Source of the DNA: Minisyncoccia bacterium
GTDB lineage: Bacteria; Patescibacteriota; Minisyncoccia; Phycocordibacterales; UBA9973
NCBI GenBank assembly: GCA_049287045.1
Contig: JBAQFC010000010.1
Coordinates: 78,179 to 142,178 of the forward strand
Length of the DNA: 64,000 bases
Direction of reading: 5' to 3'
The notes under the pieces were generated by a model. That model saw only the letters and a list, made by a program, of their open reading frames with translations. It ran no database searches and was not told where the DNA came from. Of the stretch, positions 17,319 to 63,612 are shown one piece after another (the first letter of the stretch is position 1; each line of letters begins with the position of its first letter). A program made the translations under genes and the position numbers.

Positions 17319-17988
17319 TTTAAACAAAAAAGTTTTGAATTCTATCTTAAAATTTAAACAAATGAAAGTTTTATTATCCTCATATTATCCATTACGTCAT
17401 ACCGCTGAAGGCAAAAAGGCAGTGCAATTGCATGAGCTAAAACCTTATATTGATGGATCATGTAGAAGAGAACCGGATTTTGAAAGTAAATTGCCAAGTA
17501 TTACTTCTTTATGTAGAAAAGAAAAACTTATTGGAAGATTAGATGAGGGTGATATTGTCATTTATATTACTAATGGTGGAAAGGGTAGGCGAAAATTAGT
17601 TGCTATTCTTGAAGTGTTTAAAATCTTTGATTCTCATATTCAAGCTGCGACATACTTTAATAGCGTTGGTATAGTACTACCAAATAACTGTATTGTTGAC
17701 GGGAATTTATGCAAGCCATATAACCAAACTCATGGTATGGTTAGTTGTTACAATGAATGGGGTAATATGGATATAAACTTGTGGGATGCAGAATATAAAA
17801 AAAGAGCAAGAGACTTAGGAAAATTTGCTATTTGCAAAGTATGGAAAAACGAACTTGAGTTAAATAAGCCGAGAAATATATCAAACAAAGAGTTAACAAA
17901 AATATTTGGAAGAATACCAGGAACCATGAACCCACCTAAACTAACAGATGAAGAATGGGGGAAATTTAAAACGTGGTTAGGTAAATAA
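17308..17988 (+). CDS. PUA-like (EVE/ASCH-like) domain protein, overlapping the KAP NTPase gene by 11 nt.
   Basis: 'GDIVIYITNGGKGRRKLVAILEV' resembles the EVE/PUA beta-core. Overlap suggests translational coupling. Confidence 0.35.
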   Translation: MPIDLNKKVLNSILKFKQMKVLLSSYYPLRHTAEGKKAVQLHELKPYIDGSCRREPDFESKLPSITSLCRKEKLIGRLDEGDIVIYITNGGKGRRKLVAILEVFKIFDSHIQAATYFNSVGIVLPNNCIVDGNLCKPYNQTHGMVSCYNEWGNMDINLWDAEYKKRARDLGKFAICKVWKNELELNKPRNISNKELTKIFGRIPGTMNPPKLTDEEWGKFKTWLGK

Positions 17989-34987: not shown

Positions 34988-37546
34988 ATGAAAAAACTTT
35001 ACACATTATTATCGCTCTCCTTTATTATTATCGGATTAGGATTAAATGCCCAAAACTCTTGGTCCCCAAAAGCCCAATTCGGCGGCACAGGAAGAAGTGG
35101 TGCTGTGGCATTTTCCATTGGCGAAAAAGGCTATATTGGAACAGGAACTGATGGTTCTGCTAAACAGGATTTCTGGGAATGGGATGCAAATACAAATGTT
35201 TGGACTCAGAAAGCAAACTTTGGTGGAACTGCAAGATTTGGTGCGGTTGGCTTTTCAATTAATTCAAAAGGATATATAGGTACGGGCACAGATGGTGGAT
35301 ATTTTTACCAAGATTTTTGGGAATGGGATCAAAGCACAAACATATGGACACAGAAAGCAAACTTTTCCGGAGGCATCAGGAAAGAAGCGGTTGGGTTTTC
35401 CATTGGTGATAAAGGTTATATTGGTACAGGGAAAAAAAGTAGTATGACTTACGGAAAGGACTTTTATGAATATGATCCCTCCACAGATTCATGGACACAA
35501 AAAGCCGATTTTGGCGGAACTGCTAGAAATGGGGCAGTAGGATTTTTTATTAAAAATAAAGGCTATATTGGAACTGGTCATGATGTAAGTGGCCTTTTTC
35601 AAAAAGATTTTTGGGAATATGATCCCACAACAGATTCATGGACTCAAAAAACAAACTTTGGAGGAACTGAAAGGTATTTAGCGGTTGGGTTTTCCATTGG
35701 TAATAAAGGATATATCGGAACAGGATGGAGTTTTAATGCTTACAAACAGGATTTTTGGGAATATAATTCAAGTTCAGATGTTTGGATACAAAAAACAAAT
35801 TATTTATCAAATGTCCAAAGCCCTGTTGGCTTTGCTACGTGTACAAAAGGATATATCGGAACAGGAAGCGATAATTCTAATTCGTATAAAAGTTTTGCAG
35901 AATATACTCCAAGTATTCCAATAGCAGCGGCATTTACTCCAAGTCAAACAAGTTTCTGTGAAGCTGGTTGTATAAATTTTACTGATAACAGTACATGCGC
36001 CCCAACAAGCTGGAACTGGACATTTCCAGGAGGTACACCTAGCTCTTCATCAGTTCAAAATCCAAATAATGTTTGTTTTAATAATGCAGGAACCTATACT
36101 GTAACTTTGATAGCATCCACAGGAAACTGCTCATTTACAGCAACACAAGTAATAACAGTTAATTCATTGCCAATAATAACAGTTACTGGAATTGACACAA
36201 TTTGTATTGGTAATAATACTGCTCTCACCGCGTCAGGCGCAACAAATTATAGTTGGTCTCCTACTACTGGTTTAAGTAATGCAAATATTTCAAATCCTGT
36301 AGCTTCGCCAATAATAAATACTACATATACAGTTTCCGGAACAAATTCCAATGGATGTATTAATACAACCACAGAAAGCATTACAGTAAATGCATTGCCC
36401 ATAATTATTGCAAGCGGAACGAACACGATTTGTTTTGGAGACAGTGCAACGATCTCCGCATCAGCAGCCATAACATATAGTTGGGCACCTGGGGGGCAAA
36501 CTGACTCAAATAATTCGGTAAGCCCAATAACAACAACAACCTACACAGTTACGGGGACAGATGCTAATAGCTGTGCAAATACAGCGACGGTTGCAATCAC
36601 TGTAAACCAGCCTCCTAACCTTTCCCTTTCATCCAACAGCCCGCAATGCCCCGGTTCAAATTTGAATCTTTCTTCAAATCTGGTTTCAGGTGCTTCATAC
36701 AGCTGGACTGGTCCAAATAGCTTTTCTTCGGCTTATCAAAATCCTCTTACAATAATAGCCACAGTTGCAGATTCAGGATATTATTATTGCACTATAACAG
36801 GAACCAATGGATGTAGTTGGATGGACTCCCTTCTGGTTATAGTGAGTACAACGCCTCATGCCACTGTTACTGCCAGCGGTTCAACTACATTTTGTCAAGG
36901 AGACAGCGTGATTTTAACGGCAACCGCAGGAAATAGTTATGTATGGAGTACAAGTGATACGATACAAGCAATCACCGTAACTTCTGCCGGAAATTATTCT
37001 TGTACAGTTACTTCGCCAAATGGCTGTATTGGTGATGCCACAACAACTGCGGTTAATGTAGCGATTAATCCATTACCATCGGTACCGGCAATAACACAAA
37101 ATGGTTTTACACTTTCAAGTTCAGTTTCAGGAACAACATATAAATGGTATATGAATGGAATTTTACAAACATCCTACACAACTCAGTTTATAACAATTAC
37201 TTCAGCTGAAAATGGTAGTTGGTGGGTAGTAATAACAAACTCTTTCGGTTGTTCTTCAACTTCTCCATGGTTTAATTCAACTGTTGGAATAAATGAAATG
37301 ATGAATGTTTCGGGAATAACAATTTCACCAAACCCTTTCACTTCTCAAACTATAATTTCATTTAAACAAGAACAAAAAAACACTATTGTAAAAATAGCAG
37401 ATGTATTGGGTAAAGAAATAAAATCAATAATTTTTTCAGGTAAAGAATTGATTATAGAAAAAGGGGAGATGCCGGTAGGAATTTATTTTCTCGAAATAAC
37501 TGATGAAAATAAAAATGTGATTAATAGAAAAATTGTGGTGCAATAA
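34988..37546 (+). CDS. T9SS-secreted protein: signal peptide, about 6 beta-propeller-like repeats, Ig/PKD-like domains and a T9SS CTD. Paralogue of 29940-32768.
   Basis: Repeats 'WTQKA.FGGT.R..AVGFSI..KGYIGTG'. Repeated 'Y.WSP..G...TVN.LP' modules. CTD 'ISPNPFTSQTIISFKQEQKNT...GIYFLEI' nearly identical to the first protein's. Confidence 0.8.
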   Translation: MKKLYTLLSLSFIIIGLGLNAQNSWSPKAQFGGTGRSGAVAFSIGEKGYIGTGTDGSAKQDFWEWDANTNVWTQKANFGGTARFGAVGFSINSKGYIGTGTDGGYFYQDFWEWDQSTNIWTQKANFSGGIRKEAVGFSIGDKGYIGTGKKSSMTYGKDFYEYDPSTDSWTQKADFGGTARNGAVGFFIKNKGYIGTGHDVSGLFQKDFWEYDPTTDSWTQKTNFGGTERYLAVGFSIGNKGYIGTGWSFNAYKQDFWEYNSSSDVWIQKTNYLSNVQSPVGFATCTKGYIGTGSDNSNSYKSFAEYTPSIPIAAAFTPSQTSFCEAGCINFTDNSTCAPTSWNWTFPGGTPSSSSVQNPNNVCFNNAGTYTVTLIASTGNCSFTATQVITVNSLPIITVTGIDTICIGNNTALTASGATNYSWSPTTGLSNANISNPVASPIINTTYTVSGTNSNGCINTTTESITVNALPIIIASGTNTICFGDSATISASAAITYSWAPGGQTDSNNSVSPITTTTYTVTGTDANSCANTATVAITVNQPPNLSLSSNSPQCPGSNLNLSSNLVSGASYSWTGPNSFSSAYQNPLTIIATVADSGYYYCTITGTNGCSWMDSLLVIVSTTPHATVTASGSTTFCQGDSVILTATAGNSYVWSTSDTIQAITVTSAGNYSCTVTSPNGCIGDATTTAVNVAINPLPSVPAITQNGFTLSSSVSGTTYKWYMNGILQTSYTTQFITITSAENGSWWVVITNSFGCSSTSPWFNSTVGINEMMNVSGITISPNPFTSQTIISFKQEQKNTIVKIADVLGKEIKSIIFSGKELIIEKGEMPVGIYFLEITDENKNVINRKIVVQ

Positions 37547-37898: not shown

Positions 37899-40511
37899 TT
37901 ATTCCACAATTGACTGAATAAATTTTTCAGTTTCCTTAATTTCTCTACGCATACCAAGTCGACGATATAAATCAAGGGACTCTCTAGCATATACGACAGA
38001 TTGTTTTAATCTTTCTGTATGAAGGCAAACAATCGCTATGTTAAATTTATCATTAGCGATATATCTGAGTTCTTTTCTTTCAGTGTCTAGTTCTAATGAT
38101 TTCAAAATATATTGTTCAGCCTCAATAAATTCATTTTGCTCTATTAAGATTGCACTGCGGCGATGTAAGACATGGGCCATCATTCGATTAGATTTTAATT
38201 TCTTCGCCCATTTTTCAGCTAAATCAAGCCATTTCCAAGCTTCATCGAAATTTTGGTTAGCAAATTCGACTTCAGAAAAGCGATATGTCCCCCAAAAATT
38301 TGATAATATATTATTAGAATCTTCACCTTTTTTTATGAGTATTTTTGCTAATTCTTCTGATTCGATTAATTTATCTTGCTTGAAGTAAATATGGGATAAG
38401 GTATACCAAGTTGTTACTAGGTCTTTATCATTATTACAATCAATGAATATTTTCTCTGCCGCTTTTAATCTTTTTATTAGTGATTCTTCATCATGACCAT
38501 GCTGTACTAAATAAAGTCTAGCCAATTGCAAGTGTACTTGACTTTGGCGAACTTCGTCATTAAGAGCGTGTGCCGCGGACATTGCCAAATTCAAAATTTC
38601 TAAAAATTCATGAAAAAGACTTTTCGTATACGCAAAGCTCCAAATTCCCTCTGCAATAAGAAATAAATTTTCCCATTCTTGCTGTCTGTTGCACCACCGG
38701 ATTGCTTCCAATAAGTGCGGATATTCATTTTCAATGTCTTCTTGATTTTTGGAATATAATTCTAAATCTGCACCCTTGTCATATGCAAAACGTACTAGCC
38801 ATTCAAGCCATTTATCAATAATTTGCTTACTATTAGTACCCTCAAATTGAGCACTTGAATATCTTTGCACAATAGGTAACACCCAGAACCGATCATGTTC
38901 ATTACGGTTTACGATGAATAGCCTTTGGAGTTGAGATAAACCTGCATCTCTATCTGCAATTGAAAGATTGGTTATATACCCCAAGGCATCCCTTGATGCA
39001 CCTGCATTTTGTTCAAAAAGGGAGCATCCCAACAACAGTATCAATGAATTTTGATCACGTTCTTGAACTAATTCAATTTGACCTTTAATACAGTATTCAG
39101 GTAAATCACCTATTGAGTTTCCTAACCACCTTTCAACTGAGTCAAAATTCTCTCCACTTGCCATCCGTGCAATACTTAACCTTATTGGTAAAGGTAGGCC
39201 TGCTGTCAATTCAAAAATTCTTTGACGCTGATTTATATCCAAGTTGATGTTTCGCGTATTCATGTCTTCAATAATAAGATTATCCGCTTCTGTTGAAGAA
39301 AGCCCCTTAAGGTTCAAAATATCTGCTACATCAAGCCATTCGCGTGATGTGATTATCGCTTTTGTTGGGGAAGGTAATTTTCTGAGGAAGGGCTTTATTC
39401 GTTTGTCTTTTACACTTTCTAAATTATCCATAACTAATAGTGTTCTTTTTTCTTTGAGTGCTTTTTCTACAAGGTTTTCTTGTTCTTCTGGTATTGCTCT
39501 AGTTATATACTCTTTTTCCATTACCCGCGCAATGACCGTATAGACATCTTCAAGAGTACGTAATATCAACTGAGGTAATGAAGCCATTTCTCTTCCTTGG
39601 GCAGTAAGAACTTCTTCTTTTGCTGAAATCCAAATTATATAATCAAATCTTTCCGATTCTGGCAACTCTTCATATTTTTCAATAAATTCACGTGCTATAG
39701 CCAAGGCTAAAGCACTTTTTCCAATCCCTCCGATTCCAGTTATGGCAATTTGCCATGAACGGTCAAAGGGTAATAAGCGATGTCTAAGCCAACTCAACTC
39801 TCGCTCGCGACCAATAAAATTTGTGTAATCAGGCTGAGGAAGATTGTGATACGGTTTAGGATGAGGAAGAGTCAAGGCTATGGGGGACGCATTTAGAAGG
39901 TTTGTGCCGAGAGTAGTAGTAAGCTGAATTAAAGCCTGCCGTATTTCAAAATTTATTTGTGTCATTGATTCTATGTGAATTTTTGCTAGCTCCACATGCT
40001 CTAATACTGCTTCTGTAGAAATTTTCTGAAATTGCAAAGCATAAATTTCACGAATTTCTTTTGTTCCAGGCAGAGTCCATAATTCTTCAACTATACATCG
40101 AAGTAAAAAGTCAACAGCTTTCTTTACTCTTTCTTTATTTACTCGATGAGGTAAAACATCTTCGAAATAATGATCCAAATTATTGCGTTCTTCAGGTTGC
40201 CATGCTCCAGGTCTCCTAATTAATCGAACCAATTCAATTTGGATACTTTCGGATTTTAAAAATTCTTCATCTTGGATAATGGATTCAACCAAATCTTCAT
40301 CTTGTAATGTATATTGAGAAACGAATCTTTCTAAACCTTTATTTATTGCTTTTTCAACTGAGTTATAAAATTCTCCTTCCGAAGATAGTTTTTTTATTTT
40401 TCCAGCAATTTGTTCATCGGCAAATTTTACTGCAAAATCGGCTAAAAGATTAACCAAAAAATCAGTTACATTTATCTTTAACTGGTCCGGAATAAAAAAT
40501 GATATGCCCAT
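37899..40511 (-). CDS. STAND NTPase (NB-ARC-like) with C-terminal TPR repeats and an uncharacterized helical N-terminal domain of about 200 aa.
   Basis: Walker A 'GIGGIGKSALALAIA'. Walker B 'LLVMDNLES'. TPR-like C-terminal third. Confidence 0.75.
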   Translation of the reverse strand: MGISFFIPDQLKINVTDFLVNLLADFAVKFADEQIAGKIKKLSSEGEFYNSVEKAINKGLERFVSQYTLQDEDLVESIIQDEEFLKSESIQIELVRLIRRPGAWQPEERNNLDHYFEDVLPHRVNKERVKKAVDFLLRCIVEELWTLPGTKEIREIYALQFQKISTEAVLEHVELAKIHIESMTQINFEIRQALIQLTTTLGTNLLNASPIALTLPHPKPYHNLPQPDYTNFIGRERELSWLRHRLLPFDRSWQIAITGIGGIGKSALALAIAREFIEKYEELPESERFDYIIWISAKEEVLTAQGREMASLPQLILRTLEDVYTVIARVMEKEYITRAIPEEQENLVEKALKEKRTLLVMDNLESVKDKRIKPFLRKLPSPTKAIITSREWLDVADILNLKGLSSTEADNLIIEDMNTRNINLDINQRQRIFELTAGLPLPIRLSIARMASGENFDSVERWLGNSIGDLPEYCIKGQIELVQERDQNSLILLLGCSLFEQNAGASRDALGYITNLSIADRDAGLSQLQRLFIVNRNEHDRFWVLPIVQRYSSAQFEGTNSKQIIDKWLEWLVRFAYDKGADLELYSKNQEDIENEYPHLLEAIRWCNRQQEWENLFLIAEGIWSFAYTKSLFHEFLEILNLAMSAAHALNDEVRQSQVHLQLARLYLVQHGHDEESLIKRLKAAEKIFIDCNNDKDLVTTWYTLSHIYFKQDKLIESEELAKILIKKGEDSNNILSNFWGTYRFSEVEFANQNFDEAWKWLDLAEKWAKKLKSNRMMAHVLHRRSAILIEQNEFIEAEQYILKSLELDTERKELRYIANDKFNIAIVCLHTERLKQSVVYARESLDLYRRLGMRREIKETEKFIQSIVE

Positions 40512-47999: not shown

Positions 48000-48233
48000 T
48001 TAAGAATCCACTTTTTTATTTTCTAAAATTGATTTATTAATGCTTGTCAGCATTTTATTAATGCTCTCTTTTTCAAAATCTGTTATACCTTCTTCAAATT
48101 CACATTCTTCAAATTTATTTTTTTTGAGTAAAGATTTAATCATTTCAACATATGAGAATTTATCTTCTGCAACTCCGTTGCGGATTAAAATCTCAATGTT
48201 TTGCTCTTTGTCTTTTCTGAAAATTAATTTCAT
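48000..48233 (-). CDS. Small hypothetical protein, overlapping the PHP-ATPase gene stop (ATGA).
   Basis: 77-aa ORF with overlap suggesting coupling. Confidence 0.4.
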   Translation of the reverse strand: MKLIFRKDKEQNIEILIRNGVAEDKFSYVEMIKSLLKKNKFEECEFEEGITDFEKESINKMLTSINKSILENKKVDS

Positions 48234-50548
48234 TTTGTTTCTTCTTTAAATTTTTTAAGGTTATATTTTTTTACTCTTTTTTTAATTGAACTCTTCCCTC
48301 CATCGGTTATTTCTGCAACAAAATCAACAATACTTTTGTTATCAATTTTCCCTTCTAAACTTGCTGAACGAATTTTTATTTTATTATCTTCATTTCTACA
48401 TAAAATAATATTTTGAGCATCTCCAAGCATTGGTATCGTAGCATTATGAGAAACGATAATTATTTGTTTTTTTATTTTTATTTTTTTGACAGATTTTATT
48501 AATCCCTCGTTGATATATGCGGTTGCCAAGTTATCTTCCGGCTGATCAATAATTAATGGAGCTAAATCATCTTCGTACCCTAAAATTATATCAAGTATTA
48601 TAGATGTTTTCAAACCTGGACTTAAATTTTCAAATTTTCTGCCTTCATTATCAATAATTTTATAGGTTTGTTTGTTTAGCTCTTGAAACTTGACATAAAT
48701 TTTATTTTCAAAATCATCATAATCTCTTACTTTAGGACTTTGCTTATGGTTTGAATCGAATAGATATTCTGGAGTAATTTCATCAAAAGCATCAATTTTA
48801 GTTTTAATGTAATGACAAATTACTTCTTTGAATTTTTCCTTATTTAATGCAAATTCATTTTCGATAAATAATCTATGACCCATAGATTCAACTTCTTCTG
48901 ATCCAACTTTGAAAGCGTAGGATGATATATCTTTTATAGTTTTTTGAAAATCAATAAGTGCAGTTGAATAAGATGTAATTATTTGAAGTAGTTTTTCAAA
49001 ATCCTGACTTTTTGTTTGTTGTTCATTACTCTCTGTTTTTAAATTATTATCAACTTCCTTTTTTTCATTTTTAATAATAGTCCTTATAACTTTTTCAAAC
49101 TCATTTGCCACAAAAGCATTTGTCAATTCTTCTTTTAAATCGACAACTAATTTCGAATTATGATTTTCAACAAAAGGATTTTCGAATAAAAATGTTTCTA
49201 TTTTGTCTAATGCTAGTTTGTCTTCACTGTATGATGTTTCATCATATTCAAATTTATCGACAAGAAGTTTGTGTGGAATAAAACCTTTTAATACATTTCT
49301 TTTAATATCCTCAGAAGTAATTAGCTTTGAGAAAATTGGAATTGTATCCAATCTTTTTTTATCTTCTTGAATTTGTTTGACTGAAATAATTAGTTTCTTT
49401 AAGTCCTCTTTCAATTTCTTTAATTCAGCATCAATCTTGTTTCTAATAGTTGCATCACCAGGAAATACCTTTTTTACTATTTCAATTTGATCAATCCTAT
49501 TTTCTTCACTGTTTGCAAGTATCTTTGTAATGTAATTTTGATAAATGTAATGAGGTTTTTTCCCCGAAGGATTATATACTACAATGTCTTCAACTTTAAA
49601 TTTTGAATATTCAGTAACAGAAAAATCATCATTGGTTTTTTTATACAATGAGTCAACAAACAATGTTTTTCCACTTGAAGAGCCTCCAATAACAACATTT
49701 AATCCAGAGGTTAATTCTACATCAATGTCAATCAGAGAATTATTCAGATTAACTTTCTGAATATGTTCTGACCAACTATCTGGTTTATTGCCATAAACCA
49801 ATCTTGATTTTTCTGATAAGGAAAGACGAAGCCCATCAAATGTTGGCATTGCCAACATCCAAGTAGGTACAAAATCAGCTGCTTCTTTTGCTTTCGGATT
49901 TGGGTAATTTGAAGGGGAATAATTATCCGTACAAGTAATTAAATTAATAAATTCATTAATACCAAGTTTCTTAAAATAGCTTTCCGTTTTCTCTAATCCA
50001 GTATTACTGCGAGCAGTAAAACCATCAAATAAGTTGTAATAAATATTTCTCATTAAAGTATCATCAAAAGTGATGTCTTCTTTTGGAATGGATTTATTAA
50101 AAGTTGAGTGATTTTGGCCTCCATGTGGAAGCAAAATGAAGTCATAGTTATCAAATTGTTTAATAATTGCTTCGAGTTTAGGAATATTGTTATCGGTATT
50201 TTTTACAACCTTATTGGGATATAGTATATTTAATTTTTCGTTAATGTCATCAATAATTGTTTCAGTTATTTCTTCAAGGTTAAAATAGATGTGACAATGA
50301 TAAAATGGAGCAATATCAAAATTTCGTATGTGCAATTCAACCCCCAATAATAAATTTTCAATTTTATTTTTTGCTTCCAAATAAATCTTTTTATTGACTA
50401 CATTATGGTCTGTAATTGAAATTAAGGATTTCGAATCTTTGTTATATTCACCAATCTTTTTAATCAATGTATCCAAATCGTAATTTTCATTAAGACAATT
50501 AGGATCTTCTGAAGTGTGAATGTGGGTATCTAAATATATTGGGTTCAT
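48230..50548 (-). CDS. PHP-domain phosphoesterase fused to an SMC/ABC-like ATPase (Ppl-like single-gene defence architecture).
   Basis: N-terminal 'LDTHIHTSEDP' (PHP His cluster) and 'LPHGGQNHS'. Walker A 'GGSSSGKT'. Signature-like 'LSPGLKTS'. Walker B 'LIIDQPEDNL'. H-loop 'VSHNA'. Coiled-coil insert between the Walker motifs. Confidence 0.7.
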   Translation of the reverse strand: MNPIYLDTHIHTSEDPNCLNENYDLDTLIKKIGEYNKDSKSLISITDHNVVNKKIYLEAKNKIENLLLGVELHIRNFDIAPFYHCHIYFNLEEITETIIDDINEKLNILYPNKVVKNTDNNIPKLEAIIKQFDNYDFILLPHGGQNHSTFNKSIPKEDITFDDTLMRNIYYNLFDGFTARSNTGLEKTESYFKKLGINEFINLITCTDNYSPSNYPNPKAKEAADFVPTWMLAMPTFDGLRLSLSEKSRLVYGNKPDSWSEHIQKVNLNNSLIDIDVELTSGLNVVIGGSSSGKTLFVDSLYKKTNDDFSVTEYSKFKVEDIVVYNPSGKKPHYIYQNYITKILANSEENRIDQIEIVKKVFPGDATIRNKIDAELKKLKEDLKKLIISVKQIQEDKKRLDTIPIFSKLITSEDIKRNVLKGFIPHKLLVDKFEYDETSYSEDKLALDKIETFLFENPFVENHNSKLVVDLKEELTNAFVANEFEKVIRTIIKNEKKEVDNNLKTESNEQQTKSQDFEKLLQIITSYSTALIDFQKTIKDISSYAFKVGSEEVESMGHRLFIENEFALNKEKFKEVICHYIKTKIDAFDEITPEYLFDSNHKQSPKVRDYDDFENKIYVKFQELNKQTYKIIDNEGRKFENLSPGLKTSIILDIILGYEDDLAPLIIDQPEDNLATAYINEGLIKSVKKIKIKKQIIIVSHNATIPMLGDAQNIILCRNEDNKIKIRSASLEGKIDNKSIVDFVAEITDGGKSSIKKRVKKYNLKKFKEETK

Positions 50549-50775
50549 TAGTTATTCTTGTTAGTTATGATTACTGGTGATTTTAAAACTACACAACAAA
50601 ATTTTTCTAATATAAGCAAAGAATTGTTTGCATTTATGACTCATATTGAGAATCATTCTATCATTTTTACTGTTACCTGTCAACAAAGAGTGACAGTTTA
50701 GAATAATTTTCAAAAGAAAGAAAAATGCAAAAGTGTAAAGTTGAAATACTAATCAGACTTTAAAAATTGTTTCAT

Positions 50776-55752: not shown

Positions 55753-56079
55753 ATGCGTTTTAAAAAGATTAGGAATCATTTAAAAATATATGAGATGGAA
55801 TTATACAATAAATCCAATATGCTTTATAACGATTATAATTGGAAAGCAAAATATGAACATGATGACCCTAAAATCACTGGAGAGCCTGACAGTTCATTGC
55901 TCAGTAGACATGAAGGGTATGAGATGCTATATTTTATAAATAAGTTCGCGGAGATCCATTCGCTAAAACAAGTGAATACCTGCCAGAGAATTGAAGAATT
56001 AATTAGAAAAAAACTCCCATCTGATATCAGAAGCCAAATAAAAGTTAAAGAATGGCTTGAAACAAATTGGGATAAATAA
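55753..56079 (+). CDS. Hypothetical protein overlapping the CD-NTase gene start by 23 nt. Possible accessory.
   Basis: 108-aa ORF. Overlap suggests co-transcription. Confidence 0.4.
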   Translation: MRFKKIRNHLKIYEMELYNKSNMLYNDYNWKAKYEHDDPKITGEPDSSLLSRHEGYEMLYFINKFAEIHSLKQVNTCQRIEELIRKKLPSDIRSQIKVKEWLETNWDK

Positions 56080-57121
56080 ACTGAATATGATAAAAAATTA
56101 TACGCAAAGACTTGATAAACTTAAAAAGAGAAGAACAGATGATATCCTGCAAAAGGCTTACCTTTCTGAATCTTTCGGCAAGTCCGAATTTAAGGAAAGT
56201 GTAAAATATACACTTGAATCAATGAAAGCAATTGAAGCAAGCTATACGAAAAATACATTTTTAGCTTCAGAGAAAGTGCAAACCAATTTGTCCAAAGGGT
56301 TTACTGAAAAAAATATTAAAGTGACATACCGTCATCAAGGATCGGTTGAAACCAATACTAGTATTAAGCTGCATAGCGATATTGATTTATTAGTAATTAC
56401 TGGTAAATACTTTTCATTGGAACCTCCTCAGATTCCAGCAAATCCGTACACAGGTGATCCTTTGGATGACTTAAAAGAATTAAGAACAGTCTCTTTTTCA
56501 CTTTTGACTGGTATTTACAAAAAAGTAAATGATTCAAAGCCCAAAGCAATTCAGGTATTTCCAACAGAACCTGATAGAAAAGTAGATGTTGTTGTTGCTA
56601 ATTGGTATCATTCCCTGGAGTACTACGCTAACGGAAGTACCGACAGATTTATTGGAATTCATATTTATGATAAAAATCAACATTCAAGGAAAGCAGATTT
56701 TCCTTTTTTGCATATTTCAAAACTAAATGAAAAGGATATCCTAGCAAAAGGGGGATTGAAAAAGCTCATACGGTTATTGAAGACTTTAAAAGTGGATGCA
56801 GATTCTGAGATTAATTTATCGAGTTTTGAAATAACGAGCATGATGTTTGAGATGTCATTAGTGTCTCTTATAAAATCTGAATCACAGTCTTTGCTTCTGT
56901 TACCTGAAGCCAGCAAACAATTGGATAAAATTATTACGGATAAGGTTTATAGGGAAAACCTATACTCTCCAAATGGCAAAGAATTAGTTTTCGGAATAAA
57001 CACAGAGAAGATTGTTGAAATAAAAAAATTAAAACTGGAACTGGATGAATTAATCCAGGATATTACCGAAGACTTATCTAAGTCATTCAGAAAAATTGAT
57101 GCCCAATTTATTTATTCTTAA
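56057..57121 (+). CDS. SMODS/CD-NTase-like nucleotidyltransferase (CBASS-like cyclic-oligonucleotide synthase candidate).
   Basis: Pol-beta-type NTase core 'HQGSVETNTSIKLHSDIDLLVI' (GS...DxD) with third acidic residue in 'VDVVVANW'. Adjacent overlapping effector gene. Confidence 0.65.
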   Translation: MKQIGINKLNMIKNYTQRLDKLKKRRTDDILQKAYLSESFGKSEFKESVKYTLESMKAIEASYTKNTFLASEKVQTNLSKGFTEKNIKVTYRHQGSVETNTSIKLHSDIDLLVITGKYFSLEPPQIPANPYTGDPLDDLKELRTVSFSLLTGIYKKVNDSKPKAIQVFPTEPDRKVDVVVANWYHSLEYYANGSTDRFIGIHIYDKNQHSRKADFPFLHISKLNEKDILAKGGLKKLIRLLKTLKVDADSEINLSSFEITSMMFEMSLVSLIKSESQSLLLLPEASKQLDKIITDKVYRENLYSPNGKELVFGINTEKIVEIKKLKLELDELIQDITEDLSKSFRKIDAQFIYS

Positions 57122-58058
57122 TGTTATGAAACCAAGAATTTTTATCGGCTCCTCAGGAGAAGGGATAGATATCGCTAACTATGTAAAATCTTTATTGCAA
57201 ATTGATTTTGAGGTATATTTATGGACGGATGATATTTTTAAAGCTAATAAAAGTTTTTTAGATACCTTATTGAAGGAAGCCGGGTATTTTGATTTTGGAA
57301 TATTAATAGCCACAAAAGATGATTATACTAAATCAAGGGATAAGTCATTTGATGTTCCTCGTGACAATGTAATTTTTGAATTCGGGCTTTTCCTTGGACG
57401 ATTGGGGCCATCAAGAGCTTTTATTATCCAAGAAGAAGATGCAAAGCTTCCTTCTGATTTATTTGGAATTACAATTCCTCGCTTTAAGAAAATGCTTGAT
57501 ATTTCTAATTCAGATAGCTTGAACAAAGAGATTGAAAAAATTAAACAAACAATTCAAGAAAAATTTACATTGGGTGAATTAGGATTACTACCATCTACAG
57601 CGCTTGCAATTGGATATTATTATAATTTTATTTCAACTGTTTGTGAAACACTTCAGGCAAAAAAGGAAATTGAAGTTGGAGGCAAAAGATTCCTGCAATT
57701 TGAAATAAATGTTGTTTTACCTAAAGCACTGGACTCTGATATAAAAAAGAGGGCGACTATTTATTTTAGAAGGAATGAATTAACTCAAATTCAGTTTGAT
57801 TCATCAGGCAGAAGTTTTCCGGTGTTCGTAACATATGATAATGAAGCAAATGGAGTGTTAAAACTATATGATATGCCAACTACTTTGAATGGAATTGACA
57901 AAGCAATTGAAATGTACATGCAAAAAGGACATGTTGGTAAATCATCGCAACAAAAATTACTAGAGGAAAGAGAGTTAAGAAATTTTCAGCAAACATTACA
58001 AAATTTAATCAATAATGACGCTTTTACAAAAGATAATGTTAAAATAATTTTGGAATAA
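57096..58058 (+). CDS. TIR-like (pfam10137-type) N-terminal effector domain plus C-terminal candidate nucleotide-sensor domain (STING-like size).
   Basis: N-terminal 'KPRIFIGSSGEGIDIANYV' resembles the TIR-like 'KVFIVHG' start. 26-nt overlap with the CD-NTase gene. C-terminal domain is about 160 aa. Confidence 0.5.
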   Translation: MMPNLFILNVMKPRIFIGSSGEGIDIANYVKSLLQIDFEVYLWTDDIFKANKSFLDTLLKEAGYFDFGILIATKDDYTKSRDKSFDVPRDNVIFEFGLFLGRLGPSRAFIIQEEDAKLPSDLFGITIPRFKKMLDISNSDSLNKEIEKIKQTIQEKFTLGELGLLPSTALAIGYYYNFISTVCETLQAKKEIEVGGKRFLQFEINVVLPKALDSDIKKRATIYFRRNELTQIQFDSSGRSFPVFVTYDNEANGVLKLYDMPTTLNGIDKAIEMYMQKGHVGKSSQQKLLEERELRNFQQTLQNLINNDAFTKDNVKIILE

Positions 58059-59098: not shown

Positions 59099-60877
59099 TT
59101 GAAAAATTTAAATTTGTTTATGACTTTATACAGAACAATTTTAGTTAAGTTACTTATTATTTCTTTTGTTGTTTTATCAGAAAATCTTTGGTGCCAATCA
59201 AATTCTAAAAAACAACAGCTCCCCGCGGATTCAGATCACGAATTTGACAATGGTTCTCAAATTGTGAATATTCCTCTAACTCCAGAAAAAATTGAAGATT
59301 TAATGTTGCTTGGAAAACTTTGGGGCTTCCTTAAATACTATCACCCGGCAATAGCTGAAGGGAGATATAACTGGGATTATGAACTCTTTCGCATATTACC
59401 CCAAATTATGGATAGTAAAAGCCTCGAAGAAAGAAACCATATTCTCTTAACCTGGGTTGATAAATTAGGTAAAGTTGAAAAAGGACACCAAGAAAAGCTC
59501 GATAGTTCAAGAATTAAACTCTATCCTGATATAGGATGGATAACAGCCGAGAGTTTTTTAGGAAAAGAACTTTCTACTAAATTAGAGAAAATTAATTCTG
59601 CTGAAAGAAAGGAGGAAAATTGCTATGTTTCCCTAATCCCACATGTACAAAATCCAGATTTTTCAAATGAAAAACCATACAGCAAAATATTATTTCCAGA
59701 CTTAGGTTTTCGTTTACTTGCTTTATATAGGTATTGGAATATTATTGAATATTATAATCCCAACAGACATCTTATTGGAAAAAACTGGGATTCTGTTCTT
59801 TACGAATTTATTCCGAAATTTATTAATGTCTCAAACACTCTAGAATATAAGTTATGTGTCTTAAATTTAATATCACGTATTAATGATACTCATGCTGATT
59901 TATATGGCGATCCCGATATAGAAAAGTTCAAAGGATTATATACTGTGCCATATATCGTCTCTTTTATTGAAAATAAGCCTGTAATAATTGATTATGTTCG
60001 TAATAATGGCATTTTAGATTCTACTTTACGAAAAGGGGACGTAATCCTTGATATTAATTCCGTAGACATAGCAACCATTATTAAACAAAGATTATCTTAC
60101 ACTTCGGGTTCAAATTATGCCGTGCAATTGCGTAAAATTTCATCTGATCTTTTAAGAATAAATGATTCTACTCTTAATATAACTTATCAAAGAGATAGTA
60201 TAATAAAGAATGTTACTATCTCAACAATAACAAAAAGAATTGCTAACAACTATCATCAAATTAAACAGAGTGATTCCTGTTACAAAATTATTACTCCTCA
60301 CATTGGTTATATATATCCCGGGAATATAAAAAAAATATATTTCGATTCTATTATGGATAAGTTTGCTAATACAAAAGGGATTATTATTGATTTACGATAC
60401 TATCCACAAGAATCAATTATACATGAATTGGACAAATATTTGTTTCCAAAACCGGTAGCTTTTGAAATATCATCTACAGGAAGTATAAGCACACCAGGCC
60501 TATTTATGTTACGGAAACAACCCAATCTTGTTGGGGGCAACAAGCCAGGAGCCCTGTATAAAGGAAAAATTATTCTGTTAGTAAATGAAAATACCCAGAG
60601 CCATGCCGAGTTTACAGCCATGGCATTTAGTCAATATGACAAAACTATGGTAATTGGCAGCACCACAGCAGGGGCAGACGGAAATATTTCATGGTTTTAT
60701 TTACCTGGTGGAATACGTACACTTATTAGTGGAATTGGTATTTATTATCCGGATGGAAAAGAAACTCAAAGAATTGGTATTCTTGCCAATCTAAATGTTA
60801 AGCCAACAATAAAGGGAATAAAAGAAGGACGCGATGAATTACTAGAAAAAGCTGTGGAGATCCTAAACGCAAAATGA
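59099..60877 (+). CDS. S41-family (C-terminal processing / tail-specific-like) serine peptidase.
   Basis: N-terminal signal/TM. C-terminal 'ILLVNENTQSHAEFTAMAF...GSTTAGADG' fits the S41 Ser/Lys dyad region. Confidence 0.6.
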   Translation: MKNLNLFMTLYRTILVKLLIISFVVLSENLWCQSNSKKQQLPADSDHEFDNGSQIVNIPLTPEKIEDLMLLGKLWGFLKYYHPAIAEGRYNWDYELFRILPQIMDSKSLEERNHILLTWVDKLGKVEKGHQEKLDSSRIKLYPDIGWITAESFLGKELSTKLEKINSAERKEENCYVSLIPHVQNPDFSNEKPYSKILFPDLGFRLLALYRYWNIIEYYNPNRHLIGKNWDSVLYEFIPKFINVSNTLEYKLCVLNLISRINDTHADLYGDPDIEKFKGLYTVPYIVSFIENKPVIIDYVRNNGILDSTLRKGDVILDINSVDIATIIKQRLSYTSGSNYAVQLRKISSDLLRINDSTLNITYQRDSIIKNVTISTITKRIANNYHQIKQSDSCYKIITPHIGYIYPGNIKKIYFDSIMDKFANTKGIIIDLRYYPQESIIHELDKYLFPKPVAFEISSTGSISTPGLFMLRKQPNLVGGNKPGALYKGKIILLVNENTQSHAEFTAMAFSQYDKTMVIGSTTAGADGNISWFYLPGGIRTLISGIGIYYPDGKETQRIGILANLNVKPTIKGIKEGRDELLEKAVEILNAK

Positions 60878-63612
60878 CAATGAAGTTATTTCCTTATCCA
60901 TTAATACGAGTGGCTGGTCTTCCATTTGATTTAATTAATATTAAAAGTGCTACAAGAGTTGAATTAAATAAATTAATAGATGATTATCAAAATAGTAATT
61001 CTGAACAGGAGGAAAAGAAAAAAGAATTAGATAATTCTCTTTACGAATTAATTAATAAGGAAAAAGATGTAAAAATTCGAAAAGAAATTTTGAATATTAA
61101 AAGAGATATATTTAATGATAGATTTATAATAGGGCGACATTCATTGGAAGTTGTAAATGAAGAACTAAATAATTCTCTGTATTTATTTTCCTTTAAACAA
61201 AATAAATATGAAAAAGATATTGAAAAAGGCAAAATTTGTTACAATAGAATTCTTGATGAAGAAAGATTAAACCTTAAATATATATTTGAGCAATTTGAGT
61301 TAAAAAATGCATTATTGCTCTCAAGTAGTGATTTGTTGAATAATATTAATAAATACGATCCTTATATCAAAATAAAAAATAAAAAATTTCATCAACTTGA
61401 AGCAAGTATGTATAAATATGCTACAAGAATTTGTTCCAAGACTTCTCCGTTCAGTACATTTACATCCGTTGGATTAGCAAACTTTTCAGATGTGCCAAAC
61501 CATAATCTTATTGTTGCAGGCACCTCACAACGATCAATTTCGCTTATTAGATTTAATTCATTAATATTCAGACAAATTATCATTTGTCTTAAAGCAAATA
61601 AATTTTACAGACAATTTTTTTTTATTACGTTAAATTCTTCAATAACTTTAAAAGGCGATCATTATTTATTCCTTATAAACCGGTATAATAAGGAAACTTT
61701 TCAAAGATTAAGTTATAATAGGATTCTTAAAGTCATACACAAAAAATTATCAATTAAAAAAAAACTCACATTTAATGATATTAAAAAATATATCAAAAAC
61801 AAAGTAGAGGAGGACGAAGGGGAGATAGAGAATTATTTGTTAGAATTAATTAATTATGGTTTTTTGGAAATACAAATTGGAATTTCAGAAATAGATTCTT
61901 CTTGGGATACAAAATTAATGGACTTTCTGAAAAAGTGTGATATTAAAGACAATTTGCTCGGATCCAAATTATTATCATTAATTAAATGGAAGGAGAAATA
62001 TATTAATACTGAAAATTATACGGAGAGGAGAAGTATATTACTGGATCTTCATAAATCATACAAAGAAATATTATATATAACCCTTATTGATAGTGATTAT
62101 TTTATTAAGAGTAATAATAATATTTATTATTTTTATAGACGCCCACTTGATCAAAACAATATTCTAGATTTTACATTCAAAGAAATTGCGCTTGAAAATA
62201 TAATATTTGAAGATGTAAGAAAGGACATTGGTCTTGATATTTCTTTTAAAAAAGTTGAAGAAATTGCCCAAAAATTTAATCGACTTACGAATGAAACAAA
62301 ACTATTCAAAATTTATAATTTAGAATCTTTTAATGCATTTAATTATTATAAAACCACCTATAAGGAAACAAATATTGATTTACTTACATTTTACGAAGAT
62401 TACTTTAGAAATAAATACGAAAAACAATTTATTATTAATTCGGATCTTGGTAATAATATTCCAAACAAAAAGAATGTTGAAATTCCTCAACAGATTAAAG
62501 TTATAAATAATAATAAAATAAAATGGAAAAAGAGTTTTGAAAGTGGTGCAAAACAAATTGATAATAATTTTCAGTTTCATTTCAATGAAATATATTTAAA
62601 TGAGATTAATAAAAAAAGTGACACTCTATGTTTTAATAGTAAGTCAAAAAACTCATTCAGTTCTTTTGTTCAGTTTTATTATTCTGGCGATCATAAAAAT
62701 GGAAAACAATTAATGGCTGTATTTAGTCCTGCAACATACGGCTATGGTAAATTATATAGCCGATTTTTAAATTTATTTCCAAAAGAAGTATTACAAGAAA
62801 TGAAAAATTGGAATAATAAATTACTCAGTGAAACTGAAATATTTGTTGAGAACTCTGATTCAACTGTTTTTAACGCCAACCTTCACCCTCCAATTATGGA
62901 TTATGAAATAAATATTCCAGGTGGAAATAATTTATTTATGAAAAATCATCAAATCCGAGTGTCAGATATAACTATAAAAATTAATGATAAAACGCAAAAA
63001 TTAGAACTTTCTCATAAATTATCCGGTAAATCTATAACAATTTTTGATTTATGTCTACAAGGAAATAAAGGGCGTTCCAATTTATTTCAGTTATTAGAAA
63101 TATTTTCCAGAGCTGAACACTTAGGTAATTTTTATTTAGCAATTTTCAATGAAACTTTTGGAGTTGATTTAGAGGTGAAGAATTATTTTGGAAAAAAAAT
63201 TAAACATTATCCTAGGATAATATTCGATGAGTGTATTGTTGTTCAAAGGAAATATTGGATCATTCCGAGGGAATGTATACCAAGCGTTCAAAAAGATTCC
63301 AATTTTAATTCCTTTTTTGTATTTAATGGTTGGAGAAAAGAGTTAGGATTGCCTAATGAAGTCTTTGTTCGTATAAATAGAAGACCTGACTATTCAAAAA
63401 TCCCTGCTGAAAAAAAACGCAAACAAGATGATTATAAACCACAATACATTAATTTTATGAGTCCACTGTCTGTTATTTATTTTGAAAAACTTATTCGTAA
63501 GGTTAACAATGAATTTACGATAGAAGAAATGCTACCTAACTCCGAACAGTTGTTTACTATTAATAATAGGAAAACAGTTACAGAATTTCTAATTCAATGG
63601 AATAACCAATGA
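60874..63612 (+). CDS. Lanthipeptide/thiopeptide-type dehydratase, LanB N-terminal (glutamylation) domain. Split-LanB large subunit.
   Basis: N-terminal 'LFPYPLIRVAGLPFDL' and 'YKYATRICSKTSPFSTFTSVGLANF', comparable to NisB 'FLVRNTIL' and 'RSTPFGLF'. 912 aa. ATGA overlap with the next gene. Confidence 0.7.
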   Translation: MTMKLFPYPLIRVAGLPFDLINIKSATRVELNKLIDDYQNSNSEQEEKKKELDNSLYELINKEKDVKIRKEILNIKRDIFNDRFIIGRHSLEVVNEELNNSLYLFSFKQNKYEKDIEKGKICYNRILDEERLNLKYIFEQFELKNALLLSSSDLLNNINKYDPYIKIKNKKFHQLEASMYKYATRICSKTSPFSTFTSVGLANFSDVPNHNLIVAGTSQRSISLIRFNSLIFRQIIICLKANKFYRQFFFITLNSSITLKGDHYLFLINRYNKETFQRLSYNRILKVIHKKLSIKKKLTFNDIKKYIKNKVEEDEGEIENYLLELINYGFLEIQIGISEIDSSWDTKLMDFLKKCDIKDNLLGSKLLSLIKWKEKYINTENYTERRSILLDLHKSYKEILYITLIDSDYFIKSNNNIYYFYRRPLDQNNILDFTFKEIALENIIFEDVRKDIGLDISFKKVEEIAQKFNRLTNETKLFKIYNLESFNAFNYYKTTYKETNIDLLTFYEDYFRNKYEKQFIINSDLGNNIPNKKNVEIPQQIKVINNNKIKWKKSFESGAKQIDNNFQFHFNEIYLNEINKKSDTLCFNSKSKNSFSSFVQFYYSGDHKNGKQLMAVFSPATYGYGKLYSRFLNLFPKEVLQEMKNWNNKLLSETEIFVENSDSTVFNANLHPPIMDYEINIPGGNNLFMKNHQIRVSDITIKINDKTQKLELSHKLSGKSITIFDLCLQGNKGRSNLFQLLEIFSRAEHLGNFYLAIFNETFGVDLEVKNYFGKKIKHYPRIIFDECIVVQRKYWIIPRECIPSVQKDSNFNSFFVFNGWRKELGLPNEVFVRINRRPDYSKIPAEKKRKQDDYKPQYINFMSPLSVIYFEKLIRKVNNEFTIEEMLPNSEQLFTINNRKTVTEFLIQWNNQ

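What the first reader, a model, noticed from the sequence alone, without database searches (positions are those of the whole stretch)
48000..50548. PHP-phosphoesterase fused to SMC/ABC-like ATPase (Ppl-like single-gene anti-phage architecture) with overlapping small partner
The N-terminal PHP domain (DTHIHTS, HGGQNH) is followed by Walker A (GGSSSGKT), a long coiled-coil insert, an ABC signature-like LSPGLKTS, Walker B LIIDQPEDNL and H-loop VSHNA. This amounts to a nuclease/phosphoesterase fused to a Rad50/SbcC-like ATPase. The PHP-plus-ATPase single-protein layout matches what has been reported for the 'Ppl' antiviral gene. Here a 77-aa ORF overlaps its stop (ATGA), which suggests a two-component variant. 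The neighbours (secreted and membrane proteins) are not defence-like, so the gene sits somewhat isolated.
Basis: partly seen in the sequence, partly recalled or inferred. Interest (0 to 1): 0.55.

Follow-up and report, generated by a model that had tools for sequence, protein, structure and literature searches.

The report
PHP-nuclease/ABC-ATPase with obligate small partner
This is a real, widely transferred two-gene module: a PHP phosphoesterase fused to an SMC/Rad50-like ATPase, always followed by a small, usually acidic protein. It is a distant, unnamed relative of the anti-phage gene Ppl, sits in a defence-rich region, and is most likely an uncharacterised anti-phage nuclease system.

Summary
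A 772-aa ORF (48230..50548, -) encodes an N-terminal PHP domain and an ABC ATPase head split by a ~180-aa coiled coil. A 77-aa ORF (48000..48233, -) overlaps its stop codon (ATGA).

The partner is real. A homolog lies directly downstream in 83 of 83 informative loci from more than 12 phyla. The two proteins are co-inherited (mirror-tree r = 0.88).

The protein is not Ppl. It scores 76 bits against a Ppl cutoff of 1000, and is also below the TrlF and Spaf_1101 cutoffs. It belongs to an unnamed clade (>=587 species) of the same superfamily.

Across that superfamily, short forms (~770-835 aa) carry a small acidic partner. Long forms (>=840 aa, TrlF/Ppl-sized) are solo.

All 68 full-length superfamily members examined have Walker B D-Q-P-E-D, with Gln at the usual catalytic Glu position.

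The gene is not isolated. The window also holds Olokun, an OLD-like ATPase, a KAP NTPase, a STAND NTPase and a CBASS TIR-STING pair.

Best reading: a nucleotide-gated, DNA-sensing PHP nuclease defence system with a small regulatory subunit. Function is inferred, not tested. I rate it a new variant of a known kind, of moderate interest.

The parts
48230..50548 (-). Large subunit gene (772 aa): PHP phosphoesterase fused to an SMC/Rad50-like ABC ATPase
   Evidence: ORF. More than 1345 homologs of ~770 aa. Deposited as MFZ2205535.1 'MAG: ATPase'.
49784..50548 (-). PHP domain (aa ~1-255). Putative metal ligands H9, H11, D47/H48, E71, H73, H84, H86, H142, D208. The last motif is D-N-Y instead of D-x-H.
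   Evidence: Top 22 Foldseek hits are all PHP domains. Residues invariant. Comparison with sister clades.
49457..49765 (-). ABC ATPase head, N-terminal lobe, with Walker A GGSSSGKT (49664..49687) and Q-loop Q337
48914..49456 (-). Coiled-coil insertion (~180 aa, long helices aa 365-542) splitting the ATPase head. No CxxC hook.
   Evidence: AF2 secondary structure. SMC/Rad50/RecN-type matches.
48233..48913 (-). ABC ATPase head, C-terminal lobe: signature LSPGLKTS (48602..48625), Walker B LIIDQPEDNL (48527..48556, Gln669 at the catalytic-Glu position), H-loop VSHNA (48440..48454)
   Evidence: This is the region that matches the Ppl, TrlF and Spaf_1101 HMMs.
48000..48233 (-). Small partner gene (77 aa), start codon overlapping the large gene's stop (ATGA). 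Conserved ~65-aa core with a variable, usually acidic tail.
   Evidence: Homolog directly downstream in 83 of 85 loci; the 2 misses are contig ends. Gaps of -23 to +11 nt and median pI 4.3. No Pfam, PADLOC or PDB relative.
50655..50683 (-). Promoter-like site TTGACA-17-TAGAAT with extended -10 TG, ~107 nt upstream of the large gene's ATG (consensus match only)
   Evidence: The total number of such sites in the region is not above shuffled expectation, and Bacteroidota-type promoters are not covered by this scan.

Best explanation
This is a horizontally mobile two-gene anti-phage/anti-MGE module.

The large protein is probably both sensor and effector. By analogy with Rad50, RecN and AriA, its ABC heads dimerise around bound nucleotide, and the heads and short coiled coil engage DNA. 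The fused PHP domain then degrades nucleic acid, most likely 3'->5' from free DNA ends as reported for the relative Ppl.

The Walker B Asp is followed by an invariant Gln instead of the catalytic Glu. The ATPase site therefore probably works mainly as a slow or regulatory nucleotide-binding switch, for example reading NTP levels, rather than as a motor.

The translationally coupled small protein (acidic across the family) is an obligate regulatory subunit. Most likely it acts as an inhibitor or DNA mimic that keeps the nuclease off until infection. Less likely, it is an adaptor.

Shown here by computation: the domain architecture, conservation of active-site residues, the obligate gene pairing, the patchy cross-phylum distribution, and the defence/MGE context.

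Inferred: the defence function, the DNA substrate, nucleotide gating and the partner's role.
For: Architecture: PHP fold, SMC/Rad50-like head plus coiled coil, catalytic motifs invariant. Kinship to a validated defence gene: Ppl, TrlF and Spaf_1101 HMMs all hit. Ppl is described as a single-gene PHP+ATPase anti-phage system (PMC11482910) and as an ssDNA 3'-5' exonuclease inhibited by NTPs and activated by 3'-OH ends (PMC12904381). Obligate pairing: 83 of 83 informative loci, tight coupling, co-inheritance r=0.88 with Mantel p=0.001. Mobility: at least 587 species in more than 12 phyla at 45-62% identity, with variable flanks rich in integrases (9 of 147), T4SS coupling proteins, HD-CE/MADS, AriA/OLD-like genes and R-M. 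The window itself carries Olokun, CBASS TIR-STING, STAND, OLD-like and KAP NTPase genes. D-Q-P-E-D Walker B in 68 of 68 relatives.
Against: No experiment exists for this clade. There is no member on PLSDB plasmids, INPHARED phages or IMG/VR contigs. It is below every curated defence-family cutoff. Defence-island enrichment was shown qualitatively, not against a background. The window's own partner is only weakly acidic (charge -1.5, against a family median of -11). The last PHP ligand His is replaced by Tyr in this clade, so activity could be altered. Some PHP relatives are RNases (RNase AM), so the substrate could be RNA. The AF2 models are of moderate quality (pLDDT 66-70), and no model of the complex was possible.
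Confidence: 0.6

Rival explanations
1. It is a toxin-antitoxin or addiction module. The PHP-ATPase is a nuclease toxin, and the small acidic protein is its antitoxin. The pair stabilises integrative elements rather than primarily blocking phages.
For: Tightly coupled big/small gene pair. Frequent integrase and TA-gene neighbours. The partner evolves faster than the enzyme (32% against 50% mean identity). A weak RnlB-antitoxin hit, E=0.0085, which is not significant.
Against: Absent from 72,556 plasmids. A toxin-first order with a 772-aa toxin is atypical. It overlaps mechanistically with abortive-infection defence, so it is not cleanly separable from the best explanation.
Confidence: 0.15
2. 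It is a housekeeping DNA-repair complex analogous to SbcCD/Mre11-Rad50, with PHP replacing the Mre11 phosphoesterase and the small protein acting as an accessory factor.
For: Rad50, RecN and SMC heads are the best structural matches. PHP domains act as proofreading exonucleases in Pol III, PolC and PolX (10.1101/2025.09.30.679545).
Against: Patchy presence (~0.3% of species) across unrelated phyla at high identity. No conserved synteny with repair genes. The flanks are integrases and defence genes. The coiled coil is short, without a zinc hook.
Confidence: 0.07
3. It targets RNA rather than DNA, as an RNase AM-like PHP exoribonuclease gated by the ATPase. It would shut down translation or degrade phage transcripts or tRNA, as the PARIS effector AriB degrades tRNA.
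For: RNase AM PHP domains are among the top structural matches (7ug9, 9etk). ABC-ATPase defence systems with RNA targets exist (PARIS titles/abstracts).
Against: The closest characterised relative, Ppl, is reported as a ssDNA exonuclease. SMC/Rad50-type heads are typically DNA binders.
Confidence: 0.1
4. It is a metabolic PHP enzyme of the histidinol-phosphatase type.
For: Some database records label relatives 'histidinol-phosphatase' (H13 and H18).
Against: No his-operon or other conserved metabolic synteny in any of 85 loci. It is fused to an SMC-like ATPase. The structural neighbours act on nucleic acids or nucleotides.
Confidence: 0.01

Closest known systems
Ppl (Gao_Ppl; NCBIfam NF042955, PADLOC PDLC02208)
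   Same: One polypeptide with an N-terminal PHP domain and a C-terminal ABC-type ATPase. Homologous C-terminal ATPase lobe (E 2e-17 and 1.6e-21). Found in defence contexts.
   Different: The HMMs align only aa 629-760, scoring 76 bits against a cutoff of 1000. The protein is 772 aa, against a model length of ~882. It has an obligate small partner, whereas Ppl is described as a single-gene system. The last PHP motif is D-N-Y.
TrlF family AAA-like ATPase (NF045780)
   Same: Best-scoring named family (4.8e-52). Shares the PHP N-terminus, coiled-coil ABC head and D-Q-P-E-D Walker B.
   Different: Scores 178 bits against a cutoff of 350. True TrlF proteins are 926-948 aa, with longer inserts around the coiled coil. 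They have no small partner. They occur solo or inside type I R-M operons on conjugative plasmids. No literature was found for TrlF.
Sister clades of short PHP-ABC ATPases (unnamed; e.g. P0186, P0190, P0199, P0204)
   Same: Collinear over the full length at ~27% identity, 788-835 aa. Each has a 96-102-aa acidic ORF overlapping the stop codon.
   Different: Their partners are not detectably homologous by HMM. Their PHP domains keep the canonical D-x-H.
ABC-ATPase + nuclease defence systems (PARIS AriA/AriB, Gabija GajA, OLD, Septu PtuA/B, Lamassu, Wadjet)
   Same: The logic of an SMC/ABC head with a coiled coil controlling a nuclease. AriA and JetC are among the structural matches.
   Different: The nuclease here is PHP rather than TOPRIM, HNH or Cap4, and it is fused in cis. 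The partner is a ~80-aa, usually acidic protein, not a nuclease or kleisin. HMM hits are weak (GajA 1.7e-5, partial).
Mre11-Rad50 / SbcCD
   Same: A Rad50-like head plus coiled coil, coupled to a metallophosphoesterase nuclease.
   Different: A different nuclease fold (PHP against calcineurin-like). It is fused, has a short coiled coil without a zinc hook, and is mobile with a patchy distribution.

Membership tests
Ppl (NF042955 / PDLC02208) | Full-length match above the curated HMM cutoff | tested here: not met
   NCBIfam 76 bits against a cutoff of 1000. Both HMMs align only aa 629-760, which is 14% of the model.
Ppl (NF042955 / PDLC02208) | PHP domain and ATPase domain in one protein | tested here: met
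   Foldseek: PHP and SMC/Rad50-type head.
Ppl (NF042955 / PDLC02208) | Single-gene system | tested here: not met
   A conserved partner is present in 83 of 83 informative loci. Ppl is described as a single gene (PMC11482910).
Ppl (NF042955 / PDLC02208) | Protects against phage; ssDNA 3'-5' exonuclease gated by NTPs | not testable with these tools
   Needs phage challenge and biochemistry. The property is known for E. coli Ppl only from the review PMC12904381.
TrlF family (NF045780) | Score at or above the curated cutoff of 350 bits | tested here: not met
   177.8 bits. Clade members score 206-214 bits, and true TrlF proteins 436-617 bits.
Spaf_1101 family (NF045781) | Score at or above the curated cutoff of 475 bits | tested here: not met
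   79 bits.
PHP superfamily (PF02811) | Sequence match to the Pfam model | tested here: inconclusive
   The window protein has no hit at E<1. Of 36 clade N-termini, 12 hit, best 4.1e-5. Precomputed weak PHP hits exist in sister clades.
PHP superfamily (PF02811) | PHP fold | tested here: met
   The top 22 Foldseek PDB hits are PHP domains (prob 0.96-1.0, E from 1.2e-4 to 0.044; only the first 8 are below 1e-3). The C-terminal third of the domain model has low confidence.
PHP superfamily (PF02811) | Metal-ligand motifs (HxH, H, E, H, H, DxH) | tested here: met
   H9/H11, D47-H48, E71, H84, H142 and D208 are invariant. The final His is Tyr210 in this clade, with clade-specific H73 and H86 as possible substitutes.
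SMC/Rad50-like ABC ATPases | Walker A, Q-loop, signature, Walker B Asp and H-loop, with a coiled coil inserted between the lobes | tested here: met
SMC/Rad50-like ABC ATPases | Catalytic Glu immediately after the Walker B Asp | tested here: not met
   Gln669, invariant in 68 of 68 superfamily members. Glu671 lies two residues later.
PADLOC candidate PDC-M49A | HMM match | tested here: inconclusive
   Two weak collinear hits (1e-4 for aa 6-144; 7e-4 for aa 262-729).

The most novel reading that the evidence does not exclude
The small partner may be a nucleic-acid or SSB-tail mimic that gates a Rad50-like PHP nuclease. In many lineages its acidic tail ends in an SSB-C-terminus-like tip (...DDLPF, ...EEIPF). 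The system would then be held off, or positioned, through the SSB-tail interaction network and released when phage replication perturbs it. More broadly, short PHP-ABC enzymes with trans-acting acidic partners would form a distinct, unrecognised class of defence system, parallel to solo Ppl and TrlF.
Probability: 0.15. Interest if true: 0.7.

Novelty: new variant of a known kind. Interest (0 to 1): 0.5.

Why it matters
Ppl is one of the less understood single-gene defence systems. This work shows that it belongs to a much larger PHP-ABC ATPase superfamily (2087 cluster representatives at E<=1e-10). That superfamily contains a large clade (at least 587 species) annotated only as 'ATPase' plus 'hypothetical protein', and this clade is strictly two-component. 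The split between short forms with a partner and long solo forms, together with the invariant D-Q-P-E-D Walker B, gives concrete, testable handles on how nucleotide sensing and nuclease activation are coupled in this superfamily. If validated, the clade would add a widespread defence system that current PADLOC (v2.0.0) and NCBIfam models do not call.

Tried and rejected
- Literature on 'TrlF': only unrelated acronym hits.
- The primary Ppl mechanism paper and the ABC-ATPase classification paper (Krishnan et al. 2020, recalled from memory) are not in the library. No paper describing a PHP-ABC protein plus small-partner system was found.
- Sequence searches against the PDB gave nothing significant: full protein, N-terminal profile, partner profile.
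- Hypothesis that the long solo forms contain a fused partner: the partner HMM finds nothing significant in them, and their extra length lies in and around the coiled coil. Not supported.
- Hypothesis that the sister-clade partners are homologous to this one: HMM E of 0.01-0.2 against only 5 sequences, not significant. They are analogous in size, charge and position only.
- A third conserved gene: none found among 147 flanking genes.
- The weak RnlB_antitoxin hit of the partner (E=0.0085) was rejected as noise.
- My first script estimating large-protein lengths for some loci used out-of-frame end coordinates. Those rows (negative or implausibly small lengths) were ignored. I relied on the gene calls for those loci.
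Full report
**1. Observation**

One is 48230..50548 (772 aa) and the other 48000..48233 (77 aa). The small gene's ATG overlaps the large gene's TGA, as ATGA.

All quoted motifs are present at these positions:
- DTHIHTS, aa 7-13
- LPHGGQNH, aa 140-147
- Walker A GGSSSGKT, aa 288-295
- signature LSPGLKTS, aa 642-649
- Walker B LIIDQPEDNL, aa 665-674
- H-loop VSHNA, aa 699-703

These residues are invariant in 28 homologs and in 36 N-termini from many phyla.

**2. What the large protein is**

Pfam alone is nearly blind to it. It gives only sub-threshold AAA_21 and SMC_N hits and no PHP hit.

An AF2 model from a 28-sequence alignment (mean pLDDT 70) matches SMC, cohesin, condensin, RecN, Rad50, Wadjet JetC and PARIS AriA heads (E from 6e-8 to 1e-4). 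Long helices at aa 365-542 form the coiled-coil insertion.

The PHP assignment needed a separate test. A profile of the N-terminus found nothing in PDB sequences, and only 12 of 36 clade members touch PF02811 (best 4e-5). However, the N-terminal model (pTM 0.73) gave 22 consecutive top Foldseek hits that are all PHP domains. These include the BAD_1165 phosphoesterase, the Pol III alpha and PolC PHP domains, RNase AM and Cv1693. After those hits the probabilities collapse.

The expected metal ligands are invariant: H9/H11, D47-H48, E71, H84, H142 and D208. This clade has Tyr210 where sister clades keep the canonical D-x-H, and it has additional invariant H73 and H86. So it is a PHP phosphoesterase of the kind that acts on nucleic acids or nucleotides. 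It is not a histidinol phosphatase.

**3. The partner is real and obligate**

In four independent genomes a 75-90-aa ORF follows the large gene while everything else differs. These small proteins are 33-43% identical to the window's.

I fetched 80 loci from the following groups, at 45-62% identity over the full length:
- Bacteroidota, Bacillota, Patescibacteria, Cloacimonadota and Planctomycetota
- Actinobacteria, Alpha- and Gammaproteobacteria, Campylobacterota and Desulfobacterota
- Fusobacteria, Chloroflexi, Tenericutes and one Thorarchaeota MAG

An HMM of the partner hits an ORF directly downstream on the same strand in 83 of 85 loci. The two misses are contigs that end at the large gene.

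Gaps between the genes run from -23 to +11 nt. Partners are 72-110 aa, with median pI 4.3 and net charge -11. The window's copy is an outlier at -1.5.

Pairwise identities of the two proteins correlate (r = 0.88, Mantel p = 0.001), and the partner diverges faster (32% against 50% mean identity).

The partner has no Pfam, PADLOC or PDB relative, and is only ever named 'hypothetical protein'.

**4. Family placement**

PADLOC's Ppl model (2e-17) and NCBIfam's Ppl model (76 bits, cutoff 1000) align only to aa 629-760. NCBIfam TrlF is the best hit (178 bits, cutoff 350), followed by Spaf_1101 (79 bits, cutoff 475).

An exhaustive phmmer search against 1.84 billion representatives shows a sharply bounded clade. 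About 15 full-length representatives have E<1e-150. Then there is a gap to collinear relatives at ~27% identity (775-835 aa), and beyond those lie 840-950-aa proteins. In total, 2087 representatives have E<=1e-10.

True TrlF proteins (P0234 at 617 bits, P0258 at 436 bits) pass their cutoff, but the window's clade does not. It is therefore an unnamed clade of a PHP-ABC ATPase superfamily that contains Ppl, TrlF and Spaf_1101.

**5. Two architectural classes**

Every short-form sister clade sampled has a 76-111-aa acidic ORF (pI 4.05-4.45) overlapping the stop codon. These partners are not detectably homologous to the window's.

Long forms (840 aa and above) behave differently. This group includes TrlF on an IncC plasmid, where it sits inside a type I R-M operon, TrlF on a S. 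aureus plasmid, two metagenomic TrlF proteins, and about 25 IMG/VR loci. They lack a small partner, and some have an unrelated 360-400-aa neighbour.

The extra length of the long forms lies in and around the coiled coil and does not resemble the partner.

All 68 full-length relatives share the Walker B motif D-Q-P-E-D. Gln therefore occupies the position of the catalytic Glu. In other ABC ATPases this same substitution is made artificially to trap the ATP-bound state; the PDB entry 'AriA (E393Q)' is an example. From this I infer a slow or regulatory nucleotide site. That fits the report that NTPs bound to Ppl's PHP and NTPase domains are inhibitory (PMC12904381).

**6. Context**

The window is defence-rich, not defence-poor:

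| Feature | Coordinates | Evidence |
|---|---|---|
| OLD/AriA-like ATPase | 7290..9425 | PADLOC Old 1e-16; Pfam AAA_21 |
| Olokun OloB | 9570..11264 | PADLOC 1e-139 |
| Olokun OloA | 11264..13189 | PADLOC 3e-54 |
| KAP NTPase | 13689..17318 | Pfam KAP_NTPase 1e-14 |
| NB-ARC/TPR STAND NTPase | 37899..40511 | Pfam NB-ARC 1.2e-8 |
| CBASS CD-NTase | 56057..57121 | PADLOC 5e-105 |
| CBASS TIR-STING effector | 57096..58058 | prok_STING 1e-36 |

Across other genomes, 147 flanking genes include 9 integrases, T4SS coupling proteins, HD-CE/MADS genes, AriA/OLD/GajA-like ATPases, methylases and transposases. There is no third conserved gene.

No clade member occurs in PLSDB, INPHARED or IMG/VR.

**7. 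Mechanism (inferred)**

I propose a nucleotide-gated, DNA-engaging ABC head that controls a cis-fused PHP exonuclease. The small partner would act as an obligate regulator, most likely an inhibitor or DNA mimic.

Among 80 unique partners, 13 end in Phe (background Phe frequency 4.9%), and 6 from unrelated phyla end in [LIVM]PF after an acidic run. This resembles the SSB C-terminal tip ...DDDIPF, which I cite from my own knowledge. It is a lead, not a finding, and the window's copy lacks it.

**8. Verdict**

The feature is real. The domain calls and the two-component idea are correct. 'Ppl-like' holds at superfamily level, but the protein is not a Ppl member. 'Isolated' is wrong. I rate it a new variant of a known kind, of moderate interest. 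The function is untested.

Noticed in passing
window 9570..13189 (-): A complete Olokun system: OloB (564 aa, PADLOC 1e-139, full length) and OloA (641 aa, 3e-54), adjacent and abutting.
   Followed up: partly
window 56057..58058 (+): A CBASS operon: a CD-NTase (PADLOC 5e-105) overlapping a TIR-STING effector (Pfam prok_STING 1e-36 plus TIR 3e-31). A 108-aa ORF (55753..56079) overlaps the cyclase start.
   Followed up: partly
window 7290..9425 (+), 13689..17988 (+), 5020..6243 (-), 37899..40511 (-): Further defence-like genes: an OLD/AriA/NsnB-like AAA_21 ATPase (711 aa); a 1209-aa KAP-family NTPase (weak PifA/QatA hits) with an overlapping 226-aa ORF; a DUF5655/PDC-S18-like protein; and an 870-aa NB-ARC + TPR STAND NTPase.
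   Followed up: no
Partner homologs in L020, L021, L033, L044, L063, L074 and others: A subset of the acidic partner tails end in an SSB-C-terminus-like tip (...DDLPF...EDLPF...EEIPF...ENLPF). Thirteen of 80 unique partners end in Phe, against a 4.9% Phe background. The window's copy lacks this tip.
   Followed up: partly
window 48527..48556 (-) and 68 superfamily members: The Walker B motif is invariantly D-Q-P-E-D, with Gln at the catalytic Glu position, across the whole PHP-ABC superfamily including TrlF.
   Followed up: partly
window 29940..32768, 34988..37546 (+), compared with the record name: The window encodes proteins with T9SS Por_Secre_tail sorting domains, a Bacteroidota hallmark. 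Yet the identical proteins are deposited from a 165-kb contig of a MAG labelled Minisyncoccia / Candidatus Magasanikiibacteriota. The contig may be mis-binned or misclassified.
   Followed up: no
L086 (NC_019045.2, IncC plasmid pNDM102337) 1..9393: TrlF sits inside a type I R-M operon: hsdR - TrlF - 387-aa 'RNA-binding domain' protein - hsdS - AAA ATPase - hsdM. The same 360-400-aa neighbour type recurs next to long forms on viral contigs (L118).
   Followed up: no
L074:5001-5780: The large gene of this Bacteroidetes MAG has an in-frame stop within its first 260 codons. It could be a pseudogene or a sequencing error.
   Followed up: no
window 59099..63612 (+): An S41 peptidase-like protein (592 aa) is followed by a lantibiotic-dehydratase-N-domain protein (912 aa). 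An S41 peptidase also sits just upstream of the module in Serpentinicella (L001). This is probably coincidence.
   Followed up: no
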